This document shows positions 1,606-28,073 of a stretch of DNA of 64,000 nucleotides, piece by piece. Made by a program: the position numbers and the translations under genes. The stretch is taken from contig CAZUBI010000001.1 of NCBI GenBank assembly GCA_964618625.1, positions 254,930-318,929 of the forward strand. Direction: 5' to 3'. Under the pieces are notes generated by a model. It saw only the letters and a list, made by a program, of their open reading frames with translations, was not told the origin of the DNA and searched no databases. The stretch's first letter is position 1; each line of letters begins with the position of its first letter. The stretch comes from an uncultured Candidatus Saccharibacteria bacterium. Its GTDB lineage: Bacteria; Patescibacteriota; Minisyncoccia; UBA6257.

Positions 1606-4557
1606 TTATCCTTTTATGACTGCCAAAGGTTTTAATTGGACTATTTTTTTAGCTAACCCGGCTTGATGAACTACTTCTACTACTTCATCAACATCTTTAT
1701 AGGCCAAAGGGGCTTCTTCAGCCAAATCAGAAAGAGATCCTGACTTAACTATTATACCTTTTTTAGCAAGTTGTTGTAAAACTTCTCTACTGCTTGTTTC
1801 TCTTTTTGCTTCATGACGGGACATTGTCCTTCCAGCACCATGACAAACAGTATAAAAAGCTTCTTTTGATTTTTCAGTACCCATTAAAATATAGGAGGCT
1901 GTTCCCATTGTGCCGGGAATTAACACTGGCTGATCGGGAAAAGCCCTTGTTGCCCCTTTACGATGAACGATTAATTTTATCATCTCTCCATCTACTTCAT
2001 GCTCCTCTATTTTTGCAATATTATGAGCCACATCATAAACCAAGTCCATTGATTCTTCTTTTAGTCCTAGAACTTTTTTCCAAGCATTTCTGATCAAATA
2101 AGTAATCATTTGGCGATTGGACCAGGCAAAGTTTGCTGCTGCTCCCATTGCCAAAAAATATTCTTTTCCCTCAGGAGTAGAAAAAGGAATTGCCGCTAAT
2201 TCTCTGTCGGGGAGAGAAATATTATATTTATTCATTGATTGCATAAAAAGACGGATATAATCTGTTGCCACTTGATGACCTAAACCGCGAGAACCAGTGT
2301 GAATAAGAACTACTACTTGTCCTTTTCTAAGACCCAATTCCTCAGCTAATTTTTCTTCATATACCTCGGTTACTTCCTGAACTTCCACGAAATGATTTCC
2401 GGATCCGAGAGTCCCTACTTGATCCCGTCCTCTTTTTTTGGCTAAATCAGATACAAAACAAGGATCTGCTTTTAAACATCCCCCTGACTCACAATGTTCG
2501 ATATCCTTTTCTGTAGCGTATTCTTTTTCTTTTAAATACTCGATCCCTTTTCCTAAAATTCTGTCCATTTCAGCAATATTAAATTTAAACTTTCCCCCTT
2601 TCCCAAGACCAGAAGGAACAGCATGAAAGATTTCTTCTATTAATTTTTCCAGATAGGGCCTGATTTCTTTTTCAGTATGTTTTGATTTTAATAATCTAAC
2701 TCCACAGTTAGAAACTACAAAATTGTCAGCAATAAAGTTATGGTCAGGGTGATTTACAGTAAAATCATAAACAAAATTTTGATAAGGAATTTTTTCAATC
2801 TTTTCAATTATACCCCAAACTAATCCTTTATCGCCATAAGCATATTTTTCTTTATATTCGTTAAATGATAGAAAATTAAAAGCTACTCGGGGAATTCCTC
2901 GTTTTCTTATAATTCCGTGACTATTTTCTTTAAAGAGAGAATGATAGAGAAATTGAAAACTAATATATTCTGAGACATATTTCTTAATTATTTGAGGAGC
3001 CAATTTTTTAAAATCCCCTCTCTTTCGGTACAACTTTCTTATCTCTCGTCTTGCCCTATCTCTCATTTCTACTATTTTTAATTTTTTCTTTAAATAATTA
3101 GCAGCCAAACAGGCTTTTTTATGTTTGCTTTGATTATATTCATAATTTATAACGCTAAAAAATTTAATGAGGTTTTTACTCTCACCCTTTATTTGTAACC
3201 TTAATCCTACGGTCTTTCCATATTTTCCTTTATATTGATACCCTGGTACTTCTTTAATAGAATAAGTCTGAACGCCAAATTCCTTTAATAGTTTCCCTAT
3301 ATCTTTTAAAAATAATTTGGCATTATTTTTAAATTTTTCAGCTTTTTGCATATTTAACTGAAGAGCGCAAAAGTTATATTTATTAAGAGTTGATGGTGAA
3401 GAAAGCTCCGCTCCAAAAAACGAAGCTAAGAATAATCTTTTTTGCCAAAGAGGACAATTGAATATCCAATTAGGAATTCTATATTTTTGATGGGTTTTCA
3501 AACTATAAGGTGTTCCTAAGGCCACTAATAAAATAGCAAAGGCAGAAGAGCCTATTTTAATACTGTACTCTGTTCTTGAAAATTTATAATTTCTATAAAA
3601 AGTAGTTATGGAGTGGTTTCTTTGCCTTGAATATATTTTTGGTGGCTTAAATCCAATTTTAAAAATATCTTTTTGAATTTCTTTCAAATCTTCCGGGTTA
3701 CCATAGAATTGAACCACTCCTTTTTTATTATTTACAAAACTGATTACCCCATCGCCAAAAATATAACCCATTAGTTTTAAGATAGAAGGAAGAGAAGAAG
3801 AATTATAAGTTAAAGGTAATAAATGACGAGATCTTATTTGATTTAGAATTTGAGATGAAGCATTTCCTTTGTTAGTTTTATTAAATTTCTTTAAATATTC
3901 TTTAAATCGCTTCTCGGCTAAAATAATTTTAGAAGAAGGATGCTGATAGTGAATTCCTTTAAATGGATAAGTTAAAACAAAATCATCTTTATTTAAAAAT
4001 CTTGTTTCTTTCATTCCGTTTTCTGTTTGTATGGGATGTTCTCCAGTAGCTTTAATTTTCTCTCCAGAATCTGTAATTATCCGATAAATAGTAGGGTTAT
4101 TATATCTTTGAAAAAAATGTATTAATGGAGAATCAATAACTGCTTTTTTTCTCAAATCTATAGTCTTTACTTCTTCACTTCCCCAAGACGACTCCATTTC
4201 TTTAATAGAGAGGTAGGCTCCATTTTTAAGTAAAATTTTACTCTCTGGAGAGAGGCAATTGATATCATATCCCACTGAACCAGGAGAAATTATGCCATCA
4301 GGTAGTTTTGTGGCAAAAACTCCGCCAATTGGTGCGCCATAGCCTTCATGAATATCTGGCATAGCTAAAGAATATTTTACAATTCCAGGAAGAGTAGTTA
4401 GATTAACTAATTGACTCAAACTTTTGTCTTTCATTACCTCATCTAACATTTTTTCAGTAATATAAATCCTCGCTGGAACCAGCATATCCCTCCTAAAAGA
4501 TTTTGGGATTTCCCAAAGATAATTATTTAATTTTATTAAATCAGATTTATTAAACAT
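1606..4557 (-). CDS. rtcB: RNA-splicing ligase RtcB, interrupted by an intein
   Basis: N-extein MFNKSD...GYDIN and C-extein CGVRLLKS...GSGNHFVE...HGAGR together give ~466 aa of RtcB; a 517-aa insert sits between them. Confidence 0.9.
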   Translation of the reverse strand: MFNKSDLIKLNNYLWEIPKSFRRDMLVPARIYITEKMLDEVMKDKSLSQLVNLTTLPGIVKYSLAMPDIHEGYGAPIGGVFATKLPDGIISPGSVGYDINCLSPESKILLKNGAYLSIKEMESSWGSEEVKTIDLRKKAVIDSPLIHFFQRYNNPTIYRIITDSGEKIKATGEHPIQTENGMKETRFLNKDDFVLTYPFKGIHYQHPSSKIILAEKRFKEYLKKFNKTNKGNASSQILNQIRSRHLLPLTYNSSSLPSILKLMGYIFGDGVISFVNNKKGVVQFYGNPEDLKEIQKDIFKIGFKPPKIYSRQRNHSITTFYRNYKFSRTEYSIKIGSSAFAILLVALGTPYSLKTHQKYRIPNWIFNCPLWQKRLFLASFFGAELSSPSTLNKYNFCALQLNMQKAEKFKNNAKLFLKDIGKLLKEFGVQTYSIKEVPGYQYKGKYGKTVGLRLQIKGESKNLIKFFSVINYEYNQSKHKKACLAANYLKKKLKIVEMRDRARREIRKLYRKRGDFKKLAPQIIKKYVSEYISFQFLYHSLFKENSHGIIRKRGIPRVAFNFLSFNEYKEKYAYGDKGLVWGIIEKIEKIPYQNFVYDFTVNHPDHNFIADNFVVSNCGVRLLKSKHTEKEIRPYLEKLIEEIFHAVPSGLGKGGKFKFNIAEMDRILGKGIEYLKEKEYATEKDIEHCESGGCLKADPCFVSDLAKKRGRDQVGTLGSGNHFVEVQEVTEVYEEKLAEELGLRKGQVVVLIHTGSRGLGHQVATDYIRLFMQSMNKYNISLPDRELAAIPFSTPEGKEYFLAMGAAANFAWSNRQMITYLIRNAWKKVLGLKEESMDLVYDVAHNIAKIEEHEVDGEMIKLIVHRKGATRAFPDQPVLIPGTMGTASYILMGTEKSKEAFYTVCHGAGRTMSRHEAKRETSSREVLQQLAKKGIIVKSGSLSDLAEEAPLAYKDVDEVVEVVHQAGLAKKIVQLKPLAVIKG
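2707..4257 (-). mobile_element. intein with LAGLIDADG homing-endonuclease domain inside rtcB
   Basis: Starts with Cys (CLSPESKILLKNG, block A) and has a TGEHP block B. Two LAGLIDADG-like motifs (LMGYIFGDGVISF, LASFFGAELS). C-terminal blocks VYDFTVNHPDHNFIADNFVVSN are followed by Cys+1 (TGT at 2704..2706, read directly from sequence). Confidence 0.8.
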
Positions 4558-10793: not shown

Positions 10794-10802
10794 TGGTATA
10801 AT
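10794..10802 (+). promoter_or_regulatory. extended -10 (TGgTATAAT) ~27 nt upstream of the ATPase start codon
   Basis: sequence match to sigma70 extended -10 consensus. Confidence 0.45.
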
Positions 10803-10828: not shown

Positions 10829-13723
10829 ATGAAAGACTTCGCCAAAAAAAGGGAGGAAAAAATTAAAGCTCTTTGGCAAGAATCAAAAGAAAGAGAAGCG
10901 CAAAGGCTGGCTGAAAAACACAATTTTCTTTATGTTGACTTAAGAAAAGCGCCAATTGAAACAAGCGCTCTTTCTATAATCCCAGAAGAAGAAGCAAGAA
11001 AAACTAATATTATTGCTTTCCAAAAAATAGGAAATCAAATTAAATTAGCTGTTTTAGACCCATTTAACGCTGAAACAATAAGAACAATTGAAAAAATCAA
11101 AAAAGAAAGATATAAAGTTGCCGTTTTTGTTGTTACTGAGGAAAGCCTTAATTGGGCATGGAAAAATTATGCTTTTGTCCATGAGCACCAAAAAGAATTA
11201 TCAAATTTTATAGAAATAACTGACACTAAGTCAATTGAATTTTCCGATCTTCATCAAGAACTTTTACCCCTTCCCATAGAAGAAGTCACTTCATTAGTCT
11301 CGCTTATTTTAAAATCAGCTGTTGAAATAGACGCCTCTGACATTCATATTGAACCGCAGGAAGATTACGCTCTTGTTCGTTTTCGTGTGGACGGTGTCTT
11401 ATATGATGTTTCTGAAATAGAAAAAAAGAAACACCGCGGCATTAATCAAAGATTAAAGCTTCTGTCTGGTTTAAAATTAAATATTGAAAATATTTCCCAA
11501 AATGGCAGATTTACTATCCAAAATAATAAAAGTTTTATTGATGTCCGCGCTTCCAGCTTACCAGGTCCTCATGGAGAATTTTTAGTATTCAGGCTCTTAA
11601 ACCCCAAACGAGCCGCTTTTGGTTTAAAAGATTTAGGTATTGACCAAAAAAGTATAGATGTTTTTAATCATTCTTTATCAGCACCAAATGGAATGATTTT
11701 AATCACAGGACCTACAGGTTCAGGAAAAACAACTACTTTATACGCTTTTTTAAAAAAGAAGATTTCCCCAGGAATAAAAATTATCACAATTGAAGACCCA
11801 ATTGAATATCGGCTTGTTGGTGTAAACCAAACTCAGACATCAAAAAAATATGGTTTTGCTAATGGATTAAAATCCATTCTCCGACAAGATCCTGATGTCC
11901 TTATGATTGGCGAAATGAGAGATGAGGAAACAGTAAAAACCGCTATACAGGCTTCTTTAACCGGACATTTGGTCTTTTCTACACTCCATACAAATGAAGC
12001 CAGCGGCACTATTGCCAGACTGGTTGAATTAGGCGCTGACGTCCAAATGCTTCCAAATGCGCTTAAATTAGTTGTGGCGCAAAGATTAATTCGACGCCTT
12101 TGTCCTGATTGTAAAGAAAAATACCAACCAACTCCTGAAATGAAAGAAAGATTAATTGAGGCTTTTAGCATTCTCTCTCCAAAAAGTGGAGTAAAAATAC
12201 CGAAAAATATTCCATGTCTTTATAAATCAAAAGGCTGCGCAAAATGCCATTGGCTGGGATATAAAAGCCAGATTGGAATTTTTGAATACTTTAATATAAG
12301 TCCAAAAATTATTAAAACAATCAAATCCGACGCTGACCAAAATGAAATAAGATCGAAAGCCATTGATGAAGGAATGGTGCCTCTTTTTCATGACGGTCTA
12401 TTGAAAACTATTGAAGGCATTACTTCTTTGGAAGAAGTTATGAGAGTGGCAGGTGATATTTCCTATATCCAGGAATTATATAAAGAATTATTTTCTCAGG
12501 TTTTGACTCGAGGCGTAAAAGTAAGCAGCAAAGAAGAAAAGAAAATAGAAGAATTGCTTCAAAAGAATAAATCAATTTCCCCATTACTAAAAGATAAATC
12601 TTCTGAAAGGCAAATTGCCATTATTTTAGCTACTGCATTAAAATCACGAGCCACAGATGTTCACTTTGAACCAGAAGAAAAAACCAGTGAAATTAGGGAA
12701 AGAATTGACGGAGTGCTCCATAAATTAGTTTCTTTTGATATCAACGAGCATCCTAAATTAATTAATGAATTAAAAGCCCTCAGCGGTTTAAAAACAGAGG
12801 AAACGCAAACAATTCAAGAAGGAAGATTCCGGCTTATTCTTCCTGATGAATCTTTTGACCTCAGGCTTTCAATAATTCCAGGCGGATATGGGGAAAGCGC
12901 CTCCTTAAGAATCTTGGGCGGAGAAGAATCTTTATTAAATTTAGAAAGCTTGGGATTTTTAAAAGAACAGGAAGAAGAAATAGAAAAAGTATTAGAAAAA
13001 AAAGTCGGATTAATTTTAGCTGCCGGGCCTACTTCTTCGGGAAAAACCACAACTCTATTTACAATACTTAAAAAACTTGCCAAGCCAGATGTAAAAGTGA
13101 TTACTGTTGAAGACCCTATTGAATATCGTTTACCTGGAATTATGCAAACTCAAGTTAATGAGGAAAAAGGATATACTTTTTCCAAAGTCCTTCGAAGTTT
13201 GCTTCGCCAAAACCCTAACATTTTCCTAATTGGAGAAATTAGGGACAAAGAAACAGCTAAATTAGTCTGGCAGGCGTCTACAACAGGGCATTTAGTTCTG
13301 TCCACTATTCATACAAATGACGCTTTAGGCGTTTTATCTCGTCTACAGAGTTTAGAAATACCTTCAAAAGAATTGGTGCCTGCTATTAACACTATTGTTG
13401 CGCAACGATTAGTCCGTTGCCTTTGCCCTCATTGTAAAAAAGAAATAAAAATTCCATCAGAAATGTCCAAATTTATCAAACCATCCTTAAAATATTTCCC
13501 AAAATACAAAAAACCGATAAAAATTTACCAAGCTCAAAGTTGCGCCAAATGTAGTTTTACTGGATATAAAGGCCAATCAGGAATATTTGAAATACTTATA
13601 CCGCCTTCAAAAACAAAAGATCTTACAAAAGTAAAATTTTCAAAATTAATTAACAGCGCTGTTATTAAAGTTTTACAGGGAATTACCTCATGGGAGGAAA
13701 TAAAAAGAGTGCTTGGAGTATAA
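10829..13723 (+). CDS. type II/IV secretion (GspE/PilB-family) ATPase with two tandem ATPase cores
   Basis: 964 aa; T2SSE_N-like N-terminus. Two full cores, each with Walker A (GPTGSGKTTTLYAFL / GPTSSGKTTTLFTIL), Asp box, His box (FSTLHTNEA / LSTIHTNDA) and tetracysteine motif (CPDC..CAKC / CPHC..CAKC). Confidence 0.85.
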   Translation: MKDFAKKREEKIKALWQESKEREAQRLAEKHNFLYVDLRKAPIETSALSIIPEEEARKTNIIAFQKIGNQIKLAVLDPFNAETIRTIEKIKKERYKVAVFVVTEESLNWAWKNYAFVHEHQKELSNFIEITDTKSIEFSDLHQELLPLPIEEVTSLVSLILKSAVEIDASDIHIEPQEDYALVRFRVDGVLYDVSEIEKKKHRGINQRLKLLSGLKLNIENISQNGRFTIQNNKSFIDVRASSLPGPHGEFLVFRLLNPKRAAFGLKDLGIDQKSIDVFNHSLSAPNGMILITGPTGSGKTTTLYAFLKKKISPGIKIITIEDPIEYRLVGVNQTQTSKKYGFANGLKSILRQDPDVLMIGEMRDEETVKTAIQASLTGHLVFSTLHTNEASGTIARLVELGADVQMLPNALKLVVAQRLIRRLCPDCKEKYQPTPEMKERLIEAFSILSPKSGVKIPKNIPCLYKSKGCAKCHWLGYKSQIGIFEYFNISPKIIKTIKSDADQNEIRSKAIDEGMVPLFHDGLLKTIEGITSLEEVMRVAGDISYIQELYKELFSQVLTRGVKVSSKEEKKIEELLQKNKSISPLLKDKSSERQIAIILATALKSRATDVHFEPEEKTSEIRERIDGVLHKLVSFDINEHPKLINELKALSGLKTEETQTIQEGRFRLILPDESFDLRLSIIPGGYGESASLRILGGEESLLNLESLGFLKEQEEEIEKVLEKKVGLILAAGPTSSGKTTTLFTILKKLAKPDVKVITVEDPIEYRLPGIMQTQVNEEKGYTFSKVLRSLLRQNPNIFLIGEIRDKETAKLVWQASTTGHLVLSTIHTNDALGVLSRLQSLEIPSKELVPAINTIVAQRLVRCLCPHCKKEIKIPSEMSKFIKPSLKYFPKYKKPIKIYQAQSCAKCSFTGYKGQSGIFEILIPPSKTKDLTKVKFSKLINSAVIKVLQGITSWEEIKRVLGV

Positions 13724-13924: not shown

Positions 13925-16063
13925 TCAACCCCTCACCTGCTTATCCACTTCTAAACTAATTTTCGTGGTATTAATAATTTCCTCCAATGGCATTGGGCTC
14001 CTTCTTTGATGCAAGCAAGAAGCTAAACTTTTTAACTCTTCAAAAAGCCCTTTATTTTGTTGACGCATTTTCATATCAGCTTTCACTCCATATGTTCTTA
14101 ACTTTTTATAATCATCCAGAATAAATACTCTGCCCTCAGAATATAACTCCATATATTCTTTACCAGCTCCGCTATCTCCCTGTGTTGTATAAACTAAATT
14201 AGCTAAAGAGCCGTCTTTAAATTTAATAGTGGAAACAAAATTATCAGTAGTAAGATAAAATGTGTCTTTTGGGGTTATTGCGCAAGCATCAATTTTTTCA
14301 ATTCCAGATTCAGCTAAATAGCAAAAAACATTAAACATATGGCAAGCATTGCCTAAAACTCTTCCTCCGCCTTCGCTGGTATTCACCCAATGGCTTGGCG
14401 CGAGATAAGAATCATTAACTCTATAATTAATTATTATCGGGCTGCGGCGATCCCTAATAGTTTCTTTTATTTTTTGAATGAACGGAGAAAAACGTCGATT
14501 AAATCCAACCGCGACAATTGGGGAATAATCAAAATTTTGTGTTTTTAATATATCCAAAATCTCTTTTAATTCTTCTTTGGTCAAGCATAATGGTTTTTCT
14601 ACAAAAATATTCTTTCCCGCTTTAAGAGTATCAATCACCATTTGAGCATGAAGATTATGCCTTGTACTAATGATAATAAGATTTATTTTGGGATCATTGA
14701 GTAATATTTTATAATCGGTTGTAGCAATACTCGCGTTATAGCGGCTGGCAAAATACTTGGCTTTTACCTGATCATGGGTACAAATTCCGCGAATTCTGTA
14801 AAATTCTCTTAATTTCATTAAATTAGGCAAATGCACGGTCTGGGCAAAACTTCCCACTCCAATAATTCCTAATTCAATTTTTCCTTCAATTTTTTGTGGA
14901 GTGGATAATTCAACAAACTGTTGCGAATCTTTTTCTTTTAAAATAGAGCCTGGATAAGAAAGCAAAACTGCTAATGGTTTTTTTTTGGAATTTAATAATT
15001 TATATGCCAAATCTGCCTGTTTTAAAGAATATTTTCCTTCAATCAAAGAACTAAAATCAATTTTTTTGTTTTTTAATAATTGCAGATAAGCCTGCATATT
15101 GCGATTTTCTGTCCATCTAACATAAGCATAAGGATAATCAATTCCTTTGTTTTCATAATCAGAATCTCCTCTGCCAGGGCCATAAGAAGTAGATATGCGC
15201 AATTCAATTTCCTTTTGATACCAAGGCAACCTATTAATTTTCAAACCAATATCCCCTACGACAACGACTTTCCCCTTTTTTCTTGTTGTTAATAACGCCT
15301 GATTAATAATTTCATCGTCTGAGGGATTAGCAGCAGTAATAATAGTCGCGTCTGCTCCTTGTGAATTAGTTAAATAATTAATTTTATTTAAAAGATTTTT
15401 AGTAGTAGGAGAAAAAATATTTGTTAATCCATTTTCTTTGGCTTTTTTTATTCTTTCTTTGGAAAGCTCAATACCAATCACCTTTATCCCGCTTGCCAAA
15501 AGAATCTGCGCAGTTAATTGGCCTATTAATCCTAACCCAACAACTACAGCACTTTCTCCTACGCGCAAATCAGCCTGCCTGACTCCTTGAAGAGCAATTG
15601 CGCCAACTGTGGCAGAACAAGCATCTTCAAAAGAAACTCCATTAGGAACTTTTACTGTTAAATTCCTTGGAACAGCTATAAATTCAGCATGGGAGGCAAT
15701 ATTTGCTCCTGCGCAAGCAACAATATCCCCTCTTTTAATATCAATTATATCCTTTCCGACTTTCATAACACGGCCGCAACAACTATATCCAGGAGTTACT
15801 CCCGCTTGAAGCATACCAGTTACTATTTTATAAGCATTGGAAAACCCCTGCTCTTTCACAAGCTTAATGCCTTTAGCTAATTTAGTTGGATGTTTTAAAA
15901 CCTTTAAAGGCAAAGGTTGCCCAGAAAAATTTAAACTTGATAATTCTGTGCCCGAAGAAATTAAAGAAAATAGATTTTCCACTAAAATCTGGCCTGCTCC
16001 GCAAGCCGGCGTTGGAACCTCTTCTACAACAACTTTTCCTTGTTTAAAAACTAATTGTTTCAT
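13925..16063 (-). CDS. bi-domain oxidoreductase (zinc-ADH/MDR N-terminal + Gfo/Idh/MocA C-terminal)
   Basis: 712 aa. N-terminal GroES-like/MDR with Rossmann GLGLIGQ. C-terminal second Rossmann GIIGVGSFAQTVHLPNL with Gfo/Idh/MocA-like fold. Confidence 0.7.
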   Translation of the reverse strand: MKQLVFKQGKVVVEEVPTPACGAGQILVENLFSLISSGTELSSLNFSGQPLPLKVLKHPTKLAKGIKLVKEQGFSNAYKIVTGMLQAGVTPGYSCCGRVMKVGKDIIDIKRGDIVACAGANIASHAEFIAVPRNLTVKVPNGVSFEDACSATVGAIALQGVRQADLRVGESAVVVGLGLIGQLTAQILLASGIKVIGIELSKERIKKAKENGLTNIFSPTTKNLLNKINYLTNSQGADATIITAANPSDDEIINQALLTTRKKGKVVVVGDIGLKINRLPWYQKEIELRISTSYGPGRGDSDYENKGIDYPYAYVRWTENRNMQAYLQLLKNKKIDFSSLIEGKYSLKQADLAYKLLNSKKKPLAVLLSYPGSILKEKDSQQFVELSTPQKIEGKIELGIIGVGSFAQTVHLPNLMKLREFYRIRGICTHDQVKAKYFASRYNASIATTDYKILLNDPKINLIIISTRHNLHAQMVIDTLKAGKNIFVEKPLCLTKEELKEILDILKTQNFDYSPIVAVGFNRRFSPFIQKIKETIRDRRSPIIINYRVNDSYLAPSHWVNTSEGGGRVLGNACHMFNVFCYLAESGIEKIDACAITPKDTFYLTTDNFVSTIKFKDGSLANLVYTTQGDSGAGKEYMELYSEGRVFILDDYKKLRTYGVKADMKMRQQNKGLFEELKSLASCLHQRRSPMPLEEIINTTKISLEVDKQVRG

Positions 16064-20118: not shown

Positions 20119-22131
20119 TTACATAGCATTCAACAACAGTGACGATGTCTTAAAGTCACCTAAGTCAAACGTATAGAAGTTAGTGTTTGTACCAGTGCTA
20201 ATTGTACCCCAATTAATTGATTCCAAAGCTACATAGTGAGATCCAGTAGTACTAGCAGTTAGGACAACTTGAAGAGTAAATTGTCTTGTATCATTCTCTT
20301 CAACTTGGAACACTACACCAGAACTATCATCACTATCACTTGATGAAGACTCAAGAAGTTGAGAAGCAACTGTAGAAGTACCTGCAGATGACGTAATGTC
20401 AAAAACAACACCCTGTCCAGCAGCGTCAGAACCATTATCATCTTCAGTAGTATCTTCAATATACATATCATCACCAAATGCTAATACATTAAAGACAATA
20501 GTGTAAGTTCCCTGATCGTTTTCACTCGCTGCGTCAGCAGAAAAACTCTTTATCCTTTCGACACTAACCAAACTCACTGAAATACCATCATCATAGACAA
20601 CGTGCGCTTCACCAACAGCAGTACCAGACATATCTCCAGTACCCAAATCTTCACCGGTTTCATCTTCTGCGTCAATGGCAGCGCGTTCAGTACTAGAAAT
20701 TTGAGCAAGAAAAGTATCTCCTGCGTCAAGAACGTCTGCTATTGAATTAAAGTCTGCCTTAACAAGGCATGTGTATGTCTCGCCTGCCTCAAGAACAAGG
20801 TCAAGATTATCAAATATAACTGTCTCTGTACTGCTAGTTACGCCTACTGTTGTATTTTCTGATCCTACTTTTTCTCCATCCACATAGAGATAAAGCGCAG
20901 AAACGAGATCATCTGGACCATTTCCAGTGCTTTCAACTGAAACAACATTCACAGGAATATCATCAATAGTAATGTCTGAGCTACCTTCTACCTCCATTGT
21001 GAATGAAAGAATTGATACGTTATCTGTATCATCTGTTGCATGAACATCAATTACATGCGCTTCATTAATACTTTCATCATCAAGAGCAATCTTAAGCTCT
21101 ATATTAGCTGATGTAGCATATGTATCAAACGAAAAAGTTGTAGCACCAACTCCTGGATCCTCGGAAATAGTTGCTCCTTGAGCATCTAGATACCGAATAG
21201 ATGAATAGTCAACAGTCCAAGTATCACCAGCATCAGCAGAATCAAGATTGTTAATGCCAGAAATCTTTACATAAAGAATACCTGTAGCTTCTGCAAGAAT
21301 AATGTTATTACCACTAAGTGTAACTGTCCTGATCCAGGTGTTGTCATCATCAAAAGTATCGGCATCTACGCGAGCAACTTCATTACTACCAAGCCATACT
21401 GAGACTTCGTCTGCAAATTTGTCAAACTCTCTACCAGCTGTAGCTGTGCCTTGAGCAAAAGTAAGCTGGATAGCTGTGATTCTAAGATCTGAGCCCTCAT
21501 CAGCTTCTATTTCAAGACCAGCAACTACAACATCATTCTCAGCTTCACCGACTTCCTCATTAGAAAGTCCGCTGGAAAGTTCATAGGCTACAACTGATCC
21601 TGCTCCACCCGTAAGAGCTGCTACAGTAGTTGTAGTAGTTGTATCTACGGGAGCAACTGTAGTAGTTGTTGTAGGAACTACTGGAGTACAATACAAAGCA
21701 TTGAATTTAGCTCTGGTTGTAGAACCAGCATAACCAGTCCCTTTAGTGAATCCCCAAGAAGCTAAAACCTCAGAAGCATATTTCTCCTGAAACTTAATTA
21801 CTGCGGCTTTGGTCAATGCACCGAAATAAGAAGTTTCATATCCAGAAGCACCAGCCCCAGAAATAGCCACTTGAGTGGCTGAATCTTGGTTTAATCCTTG
21901 CTGGAGTATCTTTACTTCAGCGCTTGTCATTCCTGAGGAAAGATCGCCAGTAAGACAAAGCCCTGTAGTAGTAGTTGTCTGCCCAGATATTTGTGCTTGT
22001 AGCGAAGTAATCTGAGCTAACAAAGCTGTAATCTGAACTTGAAGATCTGCAATTGTATCTGCGCCTGCTGAGCCAACCATAGAAACGGCAAAAGCTACAG
22101 CAATAACAGAAGCAATAATTTTATTTTTCAT
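20119..22131 (-). CDS. large secreted Thr-rich surface protein with N-terminal coiled-coil + PG_binding_1 module
   Basis: 670 aa; signal peptide; LQAQ coiled-coil; YFGALTKAAVIKFQ; poly-Thr linkers (TTTTTVAPVDTTTTTTV); acidic beta-rich C-terminal region. Confidence 0.6.
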   Translation of the reverse strand: MKNKIIASVIAVAFAVSMVGSAGADTIADLQVQITALLAQITSLQAQISGQTTTTTGLCLTGDLSSGMTSAEVKILQQGLNQDSATQVAISGAGASGYETSYFGALTKAAVIKFQEKYASEVLASWGFTKGTGYAGSTTRAKFNALYCTPVVPTTTTTVAPVDTTTTTTVAALTGGAGSVVAYELSSGLSNEEVGEAENDVVVAGLEIEADEGSDLRITAIQLTFAQGTATAGREFDKFADEVSVWLGSNEVARVDADTFDDDNTWIRTVTLSGNNIILAEATGILYVKISGINNLDSADAGDTWTVDYSSIRYLDAQGATISEDPGVGATTFSFDTYATSANIELKIALDDESINEAHVIDVHATDDTDNVSILSFTMEVEGSSDITIDDIPVNVVSVESTGNGPDDLVSALYLYVDGEKVGSENTTVGVTSSTETVIFDNLDLVLEAGETYTCLVKADFNSIADVLDAGDTFLAQISSTERAAIDAEDETGEDLGTGDMSGTAVGEAHVVYDDGISVSLVSVERIKSFSADAASENDQGTYTIVFNVLAFGDDMYIEDTTEDDNGSDAAGQGVVFDITSSAGTSTVASQLLESSSSDSDDSSGVVFQVEENDTRQFTLQVVLTASTTGSHYVALESINWGTISTGTNTNFYTFDLGDFKTSSLLLNAM

Positions 22132-22171
22132 TTTATTTAATCGAATTTTTGTTTAATTTTTATGTTATTAA

Positions 22172-22264
22172 CGACCTGCCTTGAAACTAATGAAGAGCGC
22201 TCTTTATGCACCCATCAGTTTCTCTTATGGGCAATAACTTTGCCTACCAAAGTTTTGGCAGGCG
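22172..22264 (-). promoter_or_regulatory. structured 5' leader with mutually exclusive helices upstream of the large surface-protein gene
   Basis: outer stem cctgccttgaaact/agttttggcagg overlaps inner hairpin aacttt-ggtaggc-aaagtt. Confidence 0.3.
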
Positions 22265-22297
22265 AATCCAAATTCTCTAAGAAGATTTAGTTTCGAC

Positions 22298-23188
22298 CTA
22301 ATTTTCCTCCAAAGAGTGGATTGACAATAATTTGTTAATACTTTCAATCTTATCTATCGCTGTCAAGCAATCTCCAGCTTTAAAAGCATTACTTGCTTCT
22401 AATAATAAATTCTTACATTTTATAATGTCACCTGGGGACCATCGATATAATTCATTCTGATTAGCAGTAAAATATTTCCCTAAATCTTCTAATTTATTTT
22501 GTAAATAACCAGGGCATTGATTAATTTCTTCAGTGGTTTCTATAATAAGAGCAAGAACCTGTGATTGGGAATTTTCTACACTTTTATTCAATTCTTCTCT
22601 TTCTTTTTCTTCTAAAGAAATCTTATCTGCAAGATTTTGTAAAGGCTTACTTCTTTCTTGAATGTCTTTTGAAATATTTAAAGCAACTTGTTTGTTATTT
22701 ATATTTTTAATTTCCTGAGAAACAATTTCTAAATCTTTTCCAATGTTTTTTGCAATAACACTTATCTCTTTCTCATAATTTTCAACTTTACTTAAATCTC
22801 CCATTCTTGCTTTTACAACTTCCAAACGAACAACAGGTTTTGTATTTTCAGAAGCAAGATAAATCTTAGCATTCTGGGTTAAAGTTTTTATTGGATATAA
22901 AATATTACCCGGTAAAGTTGTCTGGGCAAAAGCGAATGAAAAAACAAAGAAGAAAGCTAACAAGGAAGGAACTAATGTTTTCTGATATTTGGAAATAAAA
23001 GAAAAAACCGCCAGTTTAACTTTTGGTTTATTATATAAACCACTTTGCGGTTTGGTCTGTAAAATATTGGCTTTAAGCCAATTAGCCCAATCCTGATTGG
23101 ACTTTATTTGTTTTAAATCTTGTAATTTTTGAATAAGCTCTTTTTCTTGCATAATTTCTTCTACTACACAAGACGTAAAAAACAACAA
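22298..23188 (-). CDS. membrane-anchored protein downstream of the ECF sigma factor (putative anti-sigma factor)
   Basis: 296 aa, single TM (LLAFFFVFSFAFA); assigned by position after the sigma gene. Confidence 0.3.
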   Translation of the reverse strand: MLFFTSCVVEEIMQEKELIQKLQDLKQIKSNQDWANWLKANILQTKPQSGLYNKPKVKLAVFSFISKYQKTLVPSLLAFFFVFSFAFAQTTLPGNILYPIKTLTQNAKIYLASENTKPVVRLEVVKARMGDLSKVENYEKEISVIAKNIGKDLEIVSQEIKNINNKQVALNISKDIQERSKPLQNLADKISLEEKEREELNKSVENSQSQVLALIIETTEEINQCPGYLQNKLEDLGKYFTANQNELYRWSPGDIIKCKNLLLEASNAFKAGDCLTAIDKIESINKLLSIHSLEEN

Positions 23189-23192
23189 TTTG

Positions 23193-23696
23193 TTACACTT
23201 CTAATTGTTCTTTTAATGCCTGTAATGCCCTATGGATTATTACTCTTACATTTCCTTCTCTTTTCCCGAGTATTTGCGCAATCTCTTTGCTGGATAAATC
23301 ATCCACATAATGCCAAATAATGACATCAGCATAAACAGGTTTTATATTATGAAAAACTTTTTTAATTCTCTTCATTTCCAAAGTTAATTCTATCTTTTCA
23401 ATAAAAGTTGGTTGAGCAACTTGAAAATCAGCTATTTCCCCAACTTTATCCAAAGAAAGAGGTTTTTTGCTTTTTGCGCGATAAAAATCAATAATTTGAT
23501 TTCTTGCTATGCGATAAAGAAAAGCAGTTGGATTAGAAATCTCAGAACCTTGTCTTCTCCATAACTTTAAAAAAGCCAAAGAAGTTAAGTCTTGGGCTGT
23601 TTCTGTAGTGTCTACACGAAGATAGACAAAACGGAAAACTTTATCTATATTTTTGTCGTAAAACTCTGAAAATTCCTGTTTATCCATAATGAACAA
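23193..23696 (-). CDS. RNA polymerase sigma-70 factor, ECF subfamily
   Basis: 167 aa; region 2 (FLYRIARNQIIDFYR) and region 4 HTH (LSSKEIAQILGKREGNVRVIIHRA). Confidence 0.85.
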   Translation of the reverse strand: MFIMDKQEFSEFYDKNIDKVFRFVYLRVDTTETAQDLTSLAFLKLWRRQGSEISNPTAFLYRIARNQIIDFYRAKSKKPLSLDKVGEIADFQVAQPTFIEKIELTLEMKRIKKVFHNIKPVYADVIIWHYVDDLSSKEIAQILGKREGNVRVIIHRALQALKEQLEV

Positions 23697-27089: not shown

Positions 27090-28073
27090 TTAATTGGTAG
27101 TTGTGGTAACTCCTGGCGGTGGTGTTTTTGGTAAACGCCCTTTAGGAATTTTTGGGGTTGGTATTGGCAATGCTTTCATAATATTTTCTATAGTGCTGGT
27201 GGCAAAACCTTGTTTTTCTAAAACCTGAACGCTTTGCTGTACCCTATTTTTCAATTTTTCTTTCAACTGCTCTGCTTTAGCCTGAACATGGTCTGAGTAA
27301 TCCCCTAAATTCGTTTGCTGAAGTTGTTCTTGTATACTATTCATTATTCGCAATTGTCGAAATTCTCCAGCTGGCGCAGATTTTAAAGGCTGTAGTTCCT
27401 GTAATTTATTTTCCAAACGATTCATAAACTCTTCCTGATTTTCAAATTTTAAACGAAGAAGGGGTAAGGTTTGATTAATGTTTTGACGAATTCTTTCAAC
27501 TTGAACAACAACTTCTGGGACTTTTTCTAAAATCCTATCTAAAACTTCTGAGTGACGAATCTCAGCTTCTGTGACTTTATCAAGAAGTTTGTCTATATTC
27601 GGATTTTCCGAAGTTTCTTTTAAGCTCTCCATCCTATCTCTTAATCTACTCATTGCGTTTGTATAATTATCAAACGCTTTTTCTAAAACTTCCTGCTTTG
27701 GAGCTTTTTGAGCTATTGCTTCTGCCTCAGCTAATTTTTCTGAAAGTATCTGCAATTGTACTTCACTCTTTTTTATTGGATCTCTAGTCCACCCTACTTT
27801 TAAACCTCTCCACCATTCTTTCAAAAAATAAAAAGGACTAGTAGGAAGTAACCCTACTCTTTTTAATCCTAAGGCTTTTGGAACAGAAAGTTCTTCTTCC
27901 TCTGGTAAAGTTGTTGTAGTTGTATCAACAATCGTAGTGGTCGTAGCATCTCCAACCGTAGTTGTTGTAGCATCAATAACAGTAGTTGTGGTTGTTTCTT
28001 CAGCAAATATTAAATTTACAGAAACTCCGCTAATTAAACCACAAAGAAATAAACCTAAAATTATTTTTTTCAT
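27090..28073 (-). CDS. secreted Thr-rich protein with DUF5667-like domain
   Basis: signal peptide; TTTT repeats; PTSPFYFLKEW motif also present in the 43966..45858 protein. Confidence 0.45.
   Translation of the reverse strand: MKKIILGLFLCGLISGVSVNLIFAEETTTTTVIDATTTTVGDATTTTIVDTTTTTLPEEEELSVPKALGLKRVGLLPTSPFYFLKEWWRGLKVGWTRDPIKKSEVQLQILSEKLAEAEAIAQKAPKQEVLEKAFDNYTNAMSRLRDRMESLKETSENPNIDKLLDKVTEAEIRHSEVLDRILEKVPEVVVQVERIRQNINQTLPLLRLKFENQEEFMNRLENKLQELQPLKSAPAGEFRQLRIMNSIQEQLQQTNLGDYSDHVQAKAEQLKEKLKNRVQQSVQVLEKQGFATSTIENIMKALPIPTPKIPKGRLPKTPPPGVTTTTN

What the first reader, a model, noticed from the sequence alone, without database searches (positions are those of the whole stretch)
10829..13723. 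Single polypeptide carrying two complete GspE/PilB-type secretion ATPase cores
After a T2SSE_N-like domain come two full ATPase units. Each has N1-like, Walker A, Asp box, Walker B, His box and a tetracysteine Zn motif: GPTGSGKTT...CPDC..CAKC and GPTSSGKTT...CPHC..CAKC. These ATPases normally act as homohexamers, so a covalent tandem would give a trimer-of-dimers pseudo-hexamer with potentially specialised halves. No pilin, PilC or PilM genes flank it.
Basis: seen in the sequence. Interest (0 to 1): 0.6.

Follow-up and report, generated by a model that had tools for sequence, protein, structure and literature searches.

The report
Tandem double PilB-type pilus ATPase
One gene of an ultrasmall (Parcubacteria/Paceibacterota) bacterium encodes two complete, apparently active copies of the motor ATPase that builds type IV pili, a conserved lineage-wide natural fusion that I did not find described and that could be used to test how the six sites of these ring motors cooperate.

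Summary
ORF 10829-13723 (+) encodes a 964-aa protein with an N-terminal MshEN/T2SSE_N domain and two full PilB/GspE-type units, each N2D + CTD. The units are only about 40% identical, so this is not an assembly duplication. At least 118 protein clusters (90% identity level) from NCBI, JGI, ENA and Logan share the architecture at 39-91% identity, all named ones from Parcubacteria-type Patescibacteria.

In 120 tandem proteins, both units keep nearly every residue known to matter in Geobacter PilB: Walker A Lys, Asp-box and catalytic Glu, three N2D arginines, the His box, R455 and four zinc cysteines. Unit B is the diverged copy (RQDPD→RQNPN, Gm-R238→E).

The gene is a solo gene. It is the positional ortholog of a single-unit PilB found across Patescibacteria in the block PolA-TsaE <-> PilB -> RuvB-YebC-RuvC. 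This lineage is distinct from the operon-type pilB-pilT-pilC clade. A split A/B gene pair, intragenic gene conversion and an independent tandem in a non-CPR bacterium also exist.

The most likely mechanism is a trimer forming an A3B3 pseudo-hexameric assembly motor. A stacked double ring is not excluded. It is a new variant of a known kind, of moderate interest.

The parts
10794..10802 (+). TGGTATAAT, an extended -10-like element 27 nt upstream of the ATG, in the 142-nt divergent intergenic region shared with tsaE
   Evidence: Read directly from the sequence. It was not reported by the consensus scan. Inference only.
10829..13723 (+). Whole ORF, 964 aa plus stop: tandem PilB/GspE-type ATPase
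   Evidence: P0001 has the same length, 100% coverage and 91% identity.
10931..11167 (+). N1D (MshEN / T2SSE_N-type domain), aa 35-113. It is present once only.
   Evidence: Pfam PF05157, E=1.8e-9. In the AF2 model it is a folded alpha/beta domain followed by a low-confidence hinge at aa 120-123.
11285..12457 (+). Unit A (N2D_A + CTD_A), aa 153-543. This is the canonical copy and the ortholog of the single-unit orphan PilB.
   Evidence: E=2e-92 to V. vulnificus GspE, 1.7e-91 to G. metallireducens PilB. Only 1 of 83 columns that are universally conserved in single-unit proteins is lost.
11708..11731 (+). Walker A of unit A, GPTGSGKT (K300)
   Evidence: K300 is present in 120/120 tandem homologs.
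11786..11809 (+). Asp box of unit A, TIEDPIEY (E322; E326 = Gm E357)
   Evidence: Residue mapping to GmPilB uses the alignment and the residue roles in 10.1101/082750.
11882..11923 (+). Walker B region of unit A, RQDPDVLMIGEMRD (E362 = Gm E395)
   Evidence: E362 is present in 120/120.
11960..11995 (+). His box of unit A, TGHLVFSTLHTN (T378, H380, H387)
   Evidence: All three residues are present in 120/120.
12101..12247 (+). Tetracysteine zinc motif of unit A (C425, C428, C470, C473)
   Evidence: All four cysteines are present in 120/120.
12458..12601 (+). Inter-unit linker, aa 544-591. It has a conserved helical start (Y546, R561 at least 90% conserved), a disordered hinge at 554-560, then a strand + helix that mirrors aa 127-145 preceding N2D_A.
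   Evidence: The natural fission variant is cut inside this linker.
12602..13720 (+). Unit B (N2D_B + CTD_B), aa 592-964. This is the diverged copy and has no N1D of its own.
   Evidence: E=6e-76 to V. cholerae EpsE. B units form one clade in the NJ tree, bootstrap 65. 7 of 83 universally conserved columns are changed.
13025..13048 (+). Walker A of unit B, GPTSSGKT (K739)
   Evidence: K739 is present in 120/120. Position 736 is S in 80 and G in 40.
13205..13246 (+). Walker B region of unit B, RQNPNIFLIGEIRD. The catalytic E803 is kept, but both Asp of RQDPD are replaced by Asn (the B signature).
   Evidence: E803 120/120; N795 119/120; N797 110/120. The first Asp of RQDPD (the column of D354/N795) is D in 98% of single-unit representatives; the second Asp was not flagged.
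13283..13318 (+). His box of unit B, TGHLVLSTIHTN (T819, H821, H828)
   Evidence: All three residues are present in 120/120.
13424..13552 (+). Tetracysteine zinc motif of unit B (C866, C869, C905, C908)
   Evidence: All four cysteines are present in 120/120.

Best explanation
This is a genuine, functional gene for a tandem-duplicated PilB/GspE-class assembly ATPase of a Paceibacterota (Parcubacteria, Patescibacteria) bacterium.

Shown: the architecture is N1D, then [N2D-CTD]A, then a ~48-aa linker, then [N2D-CTD]B. Both units keep the complete catalytic apparatus. The architecture is conserved across Parcubacteria-type lineages. The gene is the positional ortholog of a single-unit 'orphan' PilB that lies between PolA-TsaE and RuvB-YebC-RuvC across Patescibacteria, and that is separate from the operon-type pilB-pilT-pilC lineage. 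Unit A is the conservative copy, and unit B is a single-origin, faster-evolving copy.

Inferred: three chains assemble into a six-unit ring in which A and B alternate (A3B3). N2D of one unit packs on CTD of the neighbour, as in every solved PilB/GspE/PilT hexamer, so packing units are heterotypic and only three N1 domains decorate the ring. All six sites hydrolyse ATP. In the C2 rotary cycle proposed for PilB, opposite units fire together, and in A3B3 the opposite unit is always of the other type. That would explain why neither unit has been allowed to decay. The ring would drive a PilC-type platform encoded elsewhere in the genome to polymerise pilins into a type IV pilus or competence pseudopilus, used for host attachment and/or DNA uptake. 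It probably acts as a second motor alongside an operon-encoded PilB.
For: The gene is real and conserved:
- 118 of the best 120 hits are full-length tandem proteins (964-1030 aa, 39-91% identity). They come from NCBI, JGI, ENA and Logan and are named Paceibacterota, Minisyncoccia, Moranbacteria, Falkowbacteria or Parcubacteria.
- the tandem form makes up only 14 of the top-ranked 50%-identity representatives, among 14,050 relatives with E<1e-30.

Both units look active:
- Walker A T/K, Asp-box Glu, catalytic Glu, the arginines equivalent to Gm R271/R286/R455, His-box T/H/H and the 4 zinc cysteines are invariant in 118-120 of 120 sequences in both units. The R257 equivalent is R in 113/120 (A) and 120/120 (B). 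The pore Glu (Gm E400) is kept in 107/120 (A) and 117/120 (B).
- Residue roles are taken from McCallum et al., bioRxiv 10.1101/082750.

Fold:
- Each unit superposes on T. thermophilus PilF and G. metallireducens PilB cores with target-normalised TM 0.88-0.92.
- No PDB chain covers both units (query-normalised TM at most 0.38).

Orthology:
- The block PolA-TsaE <-> gene -> RuvB(-YebC-RuvC) surrounds tandem genes (L003, L008, L011, L012, L014, L015).
- The same block surrounds single-unit PilBs of Saccharibacteria, Doudnabacteria, Paceibacterota, Nealsonbacteria, Staskawiczbacteria and Wildermuthbacteria.
- Those singles are closer to A than to B.
- Operon-type PilBs form a separate clade, bootstrap 83.

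A and B work as partners:
- A natural fission variant has a 536-aa A gene and a 407-aa B gene overlapping by ATGA. It is seen in two independent assemblies.

Pilus context in the lineage:
- An orphan PilC lies 6 kb from the tandem gene in a Moranbacteria genome.
- In the cultured Paceibacterales strain Minisyncoccus archaeiphilus, the RuvB-adjacent single-unit ortholog MNSC_02930 lies next to a predicted pilin, MNSC_02940. A separate set of pilM, pilB, pilT and pilC genes (MNSC_02690 to 02750) also exists (PMC12281837 supplement).
- CPR genomes are enriched in T4P and ComEC (PMC6744442).
Against: - The oligomeric state and the A-B geometry are not shown. The AF2 monomer gives pTM 0.52 and a disordered inter-unit hinge.
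- From general knowledge, tandem ASCE/RecA-type ATPases (ClpB, p97, KaiC, EccC) usually stack into double rings rather than alternate within one ring.
- No pilus gene lies within the 64-kb window, or within +/-10 kb of any tandem locus except L001.
- The window's own genome could not be checked for PilC, PilM, pilins or a second PilB.
- Deep nodes of the NJ tree are unsupported (bootstrap <10), so 'A sister to B' is not established. Eight A units group with single-unit proteins in the tree.
- No covariation was seen between the B-specific substitutions.
Confidence: 0.5

Rival explanations
1. Stacked double ring. Six chains form an A6 ring, which carries the N1 domains and engages the platform, stacked on or tethered to a B6 ring. 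This would resemble the D1/D2 tiers of ClpB, p97 or KaiC. It would give 12 ATPase sites per particle and a second tier with a different job, such as regulation, a second substrate or retraction.
For: Topology allows it. N2D faces one side of PilB rings and CTD the other, so the C-terminus of CTD_A could lead into an N2D_B tier below. The linker is about 48 aa with a flexible hinge. B-specific changes occur in both N2D_B (Gm R238 equivalent to E, D664E) and CTD_B (RQNPN), as expected if B mostly contacts B. The precedent of tandem ASCE ATPases comes from general knowledge.
Against: A lower ring could not reach a PilC-type platform, yet unit B keeps the pore Glu (117/120) and every catalytic residue. 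No PilT/VirB11-class double ring exists among solved structures. The nucleotide site lies between N2D and CTD of the same chain. Correlated N2D_B/CTD_B changes therefore do not require B-B packing.
Confidence: 0.25
2. This is not a pilus motor. The orphan PilB lineage, including the tandem form, has been recruited to a DNA-related or other process linked to its invariant neighbours (RuvB, RuvC, YebC, PolA). For example, it could power DNA uptake or processing without a filament.
For: The synteny with recombination and replication genes holds across class-level Patescibacteria lineages. PilC, PilM and pilins are absent at all tandem and orphan loci, whereas operon-type loci carry them. The orphans lie outside the operon-type clade.
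Against: All PilB-specific features are kept, including the pore Glu and the zinc motif. In some Saccharibacteria the TsaE-linked PilB is directly followed by PilC (L036, L062). In M. archaeiphilus it is followed by a predicted pilin. The neighbours are simply core genes near the origin (DnaA/DnaN in L012, L014). PolA and TsaE are transcribed divergently from the gene.
Confidence: 0.1
3. Unit B is a degenerate, non-catalytic regulatory module (a pseudo-ATPase).
For: B evolves faster than A (B-B mean identity 46% against A-A 51%). It has lost 7 of 83 universally conserved positions, against 1 for A.
Against: Walker A Lys, both Asp-box Glu, the catalytic Glu, three arginines, the His box and the zinc cysteines are invariant in 120/120.
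Confidence: 0.03
4. This is a sequencing or assembly artefact, or a read-through of two adjacent genes.
For: Split A/B gene pairs do exist in one lineage.
Against: The units are 41% identical at the protein level. The frame is uninterrupted. The same 964-aa length is found at 87-91% identity in many independent assemblies. The linker contains conserved residues.
Confidence: 0.01

Closest known systems
PilB / PilF type IVa pilus assembly ATPases (G. metallireducens PilB 5TSG/5TSH/6OLJ; T. thermophilus PilF 5IT5/5OIU)
   Same: The N1D-N2D-CTD order is the same. Walker A, Asp box, Walker B Glu, His box, N2D arginines, pore Glu and the tetracysteine zinc site are all present. Sequence E-values are 1e-69 to 1e-91, and target-normalised TM reaches 0.92 per unit.
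   Different: The N2D-CTD motor unit occurs twice in one chain, and the second unit has no N1D. Each unit alone scores below the TIGR02538 cut-off (430 and 340 against 675.65). The gene is not in a pil operon.
GspE/EpsE type II secretion ATPase (V. cholerae 1P9R, 4KSR; V. vulnificus 4PHT)
   Same: It is the best single PDB sequence hit for both units, with the same motifs and zinc site.
   Different: Patescibacteria have no PilQ-type secretin and appear not to have a Gram-negative envelope, according to PMC6744442. No Gsp partner genes are present. Each unit scores below the TIGR02533 cut-off.
Two separate extension motors in one system (A. baylyi PilB + TfpB, PMC8213720) and adjacent unfused PilB pairs
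   Same: Two diverged PilB-type ATPases are retained together. Adjacent PilB pairs were seen here in Omnitrophota (L086), in L079 and in Planctomycetes loci.
   Different: Those are separate polypeptides, each with its own N-terminal domain. Here the two are covalently joined at fixed 1:1 stoichiometry.
Internally duplicated partners and tandem ring ATPases (PilC/GspF two-repeat platform and the TadB/TadC fission; ClpB, p97, KaiC)
   Same: The evolutionary logic is the same: duplication and fusion, with occasional fission, of a ring-forming unit. Denise et al. describe internal duplication then fission for the platform (PMC6668835). A trimeric PulF platform is reported in PMC10790770 (title and abstract seen).
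   Different: These belong to different protein families. Whether the tandem ATPase alternates within one ring or stacks is unknown.

Membership tests
T2SSE superfamily (PF00437; PilB/GspE/PilT/VirB11-class secretion ATPases) | Significant match to the family profile over the full N2D + CTD core | tested here: met
   PF00437, E=4e-207, two full-length stretches. Each unit alone scores E=1e-101 to 1e-130 against the GspE/PilB NCBIfam models.
T2SSE superfamily (PF00437; PilB/GspE/PilT/VirB11-class secretion ATPases) | Walker A GxxxxGK[ST], Asp box, Walker B Glu and His box, in both units | tested here: met
   K300/K739, E322+E326/E761+E765, E362/E803 and H380+H387/H821+H828 are invariant in 118-120 of 120 tandem homologs.
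PilB/GspE assembly-ATPase clade (as opposed to PilT/PilU retraction ATPases) | Tetracysteine zinc-binding motif in the CTD (conserved in the PilB/GspE and BfpD/TcpT clades according to 10.1101/082750) | tested here: met
   C425/C428/C470/C473 and C866/C869/C905/C908 are present in 120/120. The PilT-family model TIGR01420 scores 297.6, below its cut-off of 319.1, even with both units summed.
PilB/GspE assembly-ATPase clade | N2D arginines that sense the nucleotide (Gm R257, R271, R286) and CTD R455 | tested here: met
   R227 (113/120), R240, R255 and R422 in unit A; R666, R679, R694 and R863 in unit B (all 120/120). Mapping uses.
TIGR02538 type IV-A pilus assembly ATPase PilB (equivalog) | Whole-protein score of at least 675.65 bits | tested here: inconclusive
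   The whole protein scores 764.1, but only because two units are summed. Unit A with N1D scores 430.5 and unit B 340.4, both below the cut-off.
TIGR02533 type II secretion ATPase GspE (equivalog) | Whole-protein score of at least 630.25 bits, and a T2SS gene context | tested here: not met
   The summed score is 779.8, but the units score 433.6 and 351.6 individually. There are no gsp genes in the 64-kb window.
NF041000 competence pilus ATPase ComGA (equivalog) | Score of at least 300 bits | tested here: not met
   The units score 230.9 and 247.8. Only the sum, 475.1, exceeds the cut-off.
Type IV pilus gene cluster (functional membership of a T4P machine) | Co-located or co-occurring PilC platform, PilM/N/O, prepilin peptidase and pilins | tested here: not met
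   None in the window or in 14 of 15 tandem loci. L001 has an orphan PilC 6 kb away. Co-occurrence elsewhere in the same genome could not be tested with these tools.
Hexameric ring assembly (PilT/VirB11-class quaternary structure) | Six N2D:CTD' packing units forming a ring | not testable with these tools
   Only a monomer prediction was possible (pTM 0.52). No multimer modelling and no model coordinates were available.

The most novel reading that the evidence does not exclude
The protein is a natural covalent A3B3 hetero-hexamer. Three chains would build one six-site ring with strictly alternating, non-equivalent units, only three N1 domains and at most threefold symmetry. Such a ring would match a trimeric, internally duplicated PilC/GspF-type platform. 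It would force an alternating-site cycle different from the C2 homohexamer cycle proposed for PilB. It would be the first secretion-ATPase motor in which neighbouring sites can be mutated independently in a native protein.
Probability: 0.35. Interest if true: 0.75.

Novelty: new variant of a known kind. Interest (0 to 1): 0.55.

Why it matters
How the six sites of PilB/GspE/PilT motors are coordinated is still argued from crystal and cryo-EM snapshots of homohexamers. The competing pictures are a C2 rotary cycle and the C3 or C6 states (PMC6858323, abstract; 10.1101/082750). A natural tandem protein fixes two non-identical units in a 1:1 ratio, and probably in alternating positions. Single-unit knock-outs such as K300A against K739A then become a direct test of subunit coupling, as engineered covalent ClpX rings did for AAA+ unfoldases.

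For Patescibacteria biology, the analysis separates two PilB lineages. One is operon-type. The other is an orphan lineage locked into a PolA/TsaE-RuvB core-gene block, which current annotation lumps together as 'GspE/PulE family protein'. The work also shows that the fusion, its fission and intragenic gene conversion have all occurred in nature. Pili are thought to be central to host attachment and DNA scavenging in these organisms.

Tried and rejected
- Assembly duplication was rejected: the units are 41% identical and the architecture recurs in independent assemblies.
- A pseudo-ATPase second half was rejected.
- Independent recent duplications in P0123 (A-B 74% identical) and P0130 (56%) were rejected in favour of intragenic gene conversion. 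Both genes sit in the orthologous synteny, and the A-B identity of P0123 is mosaic, 52-98% per 40-residue window.
- The AF2 monomer model did not resolve the inter-unit geometry (pTM 0.52).
- The AFDB Foldseek library was unavailable.
It therefore could not give the taxonomic census I wanted, although it supplied the syntenic singles.
- Within-family covariation between the B-specific positions 647, 795 and 797, and their unit A counterparts, showed no pattern.
- The NJ tree cannot resolve whether A and B are sisters (bootstrap 3-4).
- Literature searches for a described tandem or fused PilB/GspE found nothing. The same was true of targeted reads of PMC11623550, PMC6744442 and PMC6668835. This covers only the open-access library held here.
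- c-di-GMP binding by the N1D was considered but not tested.
Full report
**1. The observation**

The window carries an uninterrupted ORF at 10829-13723 (+) that encodes 964 aa. Pfam finds one MshEN/T2SSE_N domain (aa 35-113) and two full-length T2SSE matches, E=4e-207. A local domain HMM places the two units at aa 150-543 and 590-964. The units align over their whole length at 41% identity, E=4e-89. Protein copies this diverged cannot come from a duplicated assembly repeat. One correction applies: the N1-type domain occurs once, and each repeated unit is N2D + CTD.

**2. The organism and the family**

The closest homologs have the same length (964 aa), 87-91% identity and 100% coverage, and are named Candidatus Paceibacterota. 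Of the best 120 clusters at 90% identity, 118 are full-length tandem proteins of 964-1030 aa, down to 39% identity. They come from four independent data sources. Their names are Paceibacterota, Minisyncoccia, Parcubacteria group, Moranbacteria/Moraniibacteriota, Falkowbacteria and Patescibacteria group.

I also ran an exhaustive HMMER search with unit A against 1.84 billion representatives clustered at 50% identity. It found 14,050 relatives at E<1e-30. Two-unit proteins rank first because both stretches score. There are only 14 of them (P0070, P0079, P0121-P0132), plus two fragments. After those, the list consists of single-unit proteins. The architecture is therefore rare within the superfamily but firmly fixed in one lineage.

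NCBI names these proteins only 'GspE/PulE family protein'. The PDB has no chain that covers both units. Sequence hits to both halves fall on the same single core. Foldseek gives a query-normalised TM of at most 0.38, while target-normalised TM reaches 0.92 for T. thermophilus PilF and 0.88-0.90 for G. metallireducens PilB.

**3. Are both halves competent?**

I mapped the residues to G. metallireducens PilB using the alignment and the functional assignments of McCallum et al. (bioRxiv 10.1101/082750). Counts are from 120 tandem sequences.

| Role (GmPilB residue) | Unit A | Unit B |
|---|---|---|
| Walker A Thr (T327) | T296, 120/120 | T735, 120/120 |
| Walker A Lys | K300, 120/120 | K739, 120/120 |
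| Asp box, first Glu | E322, 119/120 | E761, 120/120 |
| Asp box, Mg-binding Glu (E357) | E326, 118/120 | E765, 120/120 |
| Catalytic Glu (E395) | E362, 120/120 | E803, 120/120 |
| N2D arginine (R257) | R227, 113/120 | R666, 120/120 |
| N2D arginine (R271) | R240, 120/120 | R679, 120/120 |
| N2D arginine (R286) | R255, 120/120 | R694, 120/120 |
| His box (T411, H413, H420) | T378, H380, H387, 120/120 | T819, H821, H828, 120/120 |
| R455 | R422, 120/120 | R863, 120/120 |
| Zinc cysteines | all four, 120/120 | all four, 120/120 |
| Pore Glu (E400) | E367, 107/120 | E808, 117/120 |

**4. Specialisation of the halves**

Eighty-three columns are at least 90% conserved in 132 single-unit representatives. 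Unit A departs at one of them (R481Q in GY.GR). Unit B departs at seven: S609T, the Gm-R238 equivalent R to E647, D664E, G736S, D795N, R916Q and G936. RQDPD becomes RQNPN in unit B, with N795 in 119/120 and N797 in 110/120. B-B orthologous identity (46%) is lower than A-A identity (51%). B also lacks an N1D and has a shorter C-terminal subdomain. B is thus the diverged partner, changed at non-catalytic positions. I could not assign these positions to an interface, because no coordinates were available, and they show no informative covariation.

**5. Origin**

I built an NJ tree with 100 bootstraps from 50 A units, 50 B units, 132 single-unit representatives and 37 units taken from genomic loci.

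- The B units of the main family form one clade, bootstrap 65. Besides the B unit of the tandem locus L015, it contains the B half of a split gene (found both as P0238 and as the L006 ORF) and the short protein P0257, whose context I did not check.
- A units fall among single-unit proteins with unsupported deep nodes. The second unit therefore arose once. 'A sister to B' cannot be asserted.
- Eight A units group with other single-unit proteins. This may be a replacement of the A unit or an NJ artefact, and I did not resolve it.

P0123 (A-B 74% identical) and P0130 (56%) place their own A and B together. However, they sit in the same synteny as the window (PolA-TsaE <-> gene; gene -> RuvB). P0123 also shows a mosaic of 52-98% A-B identity. 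Intragenic gene conversion explains this better than new duplications.

P0132 is different. It lies inside the operon-type clade with A and B as sisters, bootstrap 92. Its genome has sulfatases, CBM9, BatA and an ECF sigma factor. It carries an N-terminal T2SSF (PilC-type) domain scoring 78.5 bits. This is an independent tandem fusion.

A fission also exists. In L006 and L007 (NCBI and JGI assemblies), a 536-aa A gene ends inside the linker and overlaps by ATGA with a 407-aa B gene.

**6. Genomic context**

The window around the gene holds only core genes:

- upstream, on the opposite strand: RtcB (with an intein), archease, S20, holA, a histidine kinase, PolA and TsaE;
- downstream, convergent: a fused oxidoreductase, a Wzy_C/TPR protein and a peptidase.

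The Pfam-scanned ORFs in the rest of the window, up to about 60.6 kb, are likewise housekeeping genes or have no Pfam hit. There is no second T2SSE gene, no PilC and no prepilin motif. My motif scan does find pilins in 42 other loci.

Tandem genes elsewhere are equally solitary, but they share a block: RtcB-archease or PolA-TsaE <-> gene -> RuvB -> YebC -> RuvC, often near DnaN and DnaA.

The same block surrounds single-unit PilB genes in other lineages:

- Saccharibacteria (L017, L026, L034), Doudnabacteria (L018) and a Patescibacteria-group bacterium (L020);
- Paceibacterota (L022, L023; about 570-590 aa with MshEN);
- as short forms of about 440 aa without N1D: L030 (labelled Saccharibacteria), UBA6220, Wildermuthbacteria, Nealsonbacteria and Staskawiczbacteria.

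All of these are closer to A than to B, and all lie outside the operon-type clade. That clade has bootstrap 83 and contains every PilB that has an adjacent PilC, from Patescibacteria and other phyla alike.

The tandem gene is thus the duplicated form of a Patescibacteria-wide orphan PilB ortholog. Three links to pili exist:

- In two Saccharibacteria loci, the TsaE-linked PilB is directly followed by PilC (L036, L062).
- A Moranbacteria genome has an orphan PilC 6 kb from the tandem gene.
- In the cultured Paceibacterales strain Minisyncoccus archaeiphilus, the annotation table lists RuvB (MNSC_02920), a T2SSE-only ATPase (MNSC_02930) and a predicted pilin (MNSC_02940) side by side. It also lists a separate set of pilM, pilB, pilT and pilC genes (MNSC_02690 to 02750) and a third PilB-like gene, MNSC_04080 (PMC12281837 supplement).

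The last point suggests that the orphan or tandem ATPase is an additional motor rather than the only one. I could not verify this for the window's genome.

**7. Structure**

AF2 with a 100-sequence alignment gives mean pLDDT 87.5 and confidently folded domains. The pTM is 0.52, and there are low-confidence hinges at aa 120-123 and 554-560. The strand + helix at 562-587 before N2D_B mirrors 127-145 before N2D_A. The duplicated segment therefore began in the N1D-N2D linker. The start of the inter-unit linker is conserved (Y546 and R561 at least 90%), and the fission variant keeps it at the end of the A gene.

**8. Mechanism**

In solved PilB, GspE and PilT rings, the N2D of one chain packs on the CTD of the next as a rigid 'packing unit'. 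The nucleotide sits between the CTD and N2D of one chain.

A tandem chain can extend this 'beads on a string' scheme. Three chains would give a six-unit ring with alternating A and B, heterotypic packing units and three N1 domains. In the C2 cycle, opposite units act together, and in A3B3 the opposite unit is always of the other type. All six sites must then stay active, which matches the invariance seen here. A ring with threefold symmetry would also match a trimeric, internally duplicated platform protein (title of PMC10790770; platform duplication in PMC6668835).

I rate this reading at about 0.5 overall. The identity and activity parts are near-certain, and the quaternary part is roughly 0.5-0.6 given the rest.

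The main rival, at 0.25, is a stacked A6/B6 double ring, as in ClpB, p97 or KaiC. It is topologically possible, because N2D and CTD lie on opposite faces of the ring. The remaining rivals are a non-pilus role suggested by the RuvB/PolA synteny (0.1), a pseudo-ATPase second unit (0.03) and an artefact (0.01).

**9. Novelty**

Six full-text searches and targeted reads of four papers on type IV filament systems and their motors found no description of a tandem PilB/GspE. I take the finding to be a new variant of a known kind: known fold, chemistry and probable role, but an undescribed covalent two-unit architecture with lineage-wide conservation. Interest is moderate (0.55). It offers a natural tool for dissecting subunit coupling in secretion ATPases and refines the pilus-gene inventory of Patescibacteria, but it does not overturn current understanding.

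Noticed in passing
window 1606-4557 (-): The RtcB tRNA ligase gene is 983 aa and contains an intein. Pfam Intein_splicing spans aa 109-617, inserted in RtcB. The orthologs in L003 and L014 are 479-486 aa without it.
   Followed up: partly
L009 10001-13144 and L010 3275-6418 (P0132): An independent tandem PilB-type ATPase (1047 aa) occurs in a non-CPR genome with sulfatases, CBM9, BatA and ECF sigma neighbours. Its N-terminus carries a T2SSF (PilC-type) domain of 78.5 bits. This is a platform-domain/double-ATPase fusion. Its A and B units are sisters with bootstrap 92, inside the operon-type clade.
   Followed up: partly
L006 140-2970; L007 18-1381: A natural fission of the tandem gene. A 536-aa A gene ends in the linker and overlaps by ATGA with a 407-aa B gene. 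RuvB lies downstream. The same sequence occurs in an NCBI MAG and a JGI metagenome.
   Followed up: yes
L008 3226-6213 (P0123); L011 10001-12985 (P0130): These are orthologous tandem genes whose two units are 74% and 56% identical to each other. P0123 has a mosaic profile of up to 98% identity per 40-residue window. This suggests intragenic gene conversion between the halves.
   Followed up: partly
L017, L018, L020, L022, L023, L026, L030, L034, L035, L038, L041, L050 (around position 10000 in most): The core-gene block PolA-TsaE <-> PilB-like ATPase -> RuvB-YebC-RuvC is conserved across Saccharibacteria, Doudnabacteria and many Parcubacteria. In five lineages the ATPase is a ~440-aa form without any N1 domain.
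   Followed up: partly
L086 10315-13749; L079 2740-6176; L049, L057, L075, L076, L077: Adjacent unfused pairs of full-length PilB genes occur in an Omnitrophota locus (L086) and an uncultured bacterium (L079). The order pilB-pilT-pilB-pilC recurs in five Planctomycetes loci. These could be hetero-oligomeric motors or raw material for fusions.
   Followed up: no
window 13925-16063 (-): A 712-aa fusion of a zinc-type alcohol dehydrogenase (ADH_zinc_N) with a GFO/IDH/MocA oxidoreductase lies convergent with the ATPase gene. It is conserved in L003. It is followed by a 766-aa Wzy_C O-antigen-ligase/TPR protein.
   Followed up: no
window 20119-23696 (-), 27090-28073 (-), 43966-45858 (-): A small sigma-70/ECF-like factor (23193-23696) lies next to proteins without Pfam hits (22298-23188; 20119-22131, in a segment of locally higher GC, 0.40 against about 0.32). 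Two DUF5667 proteins are also present, one of them fused to a SurA-like PPIase.
   Followed up: no
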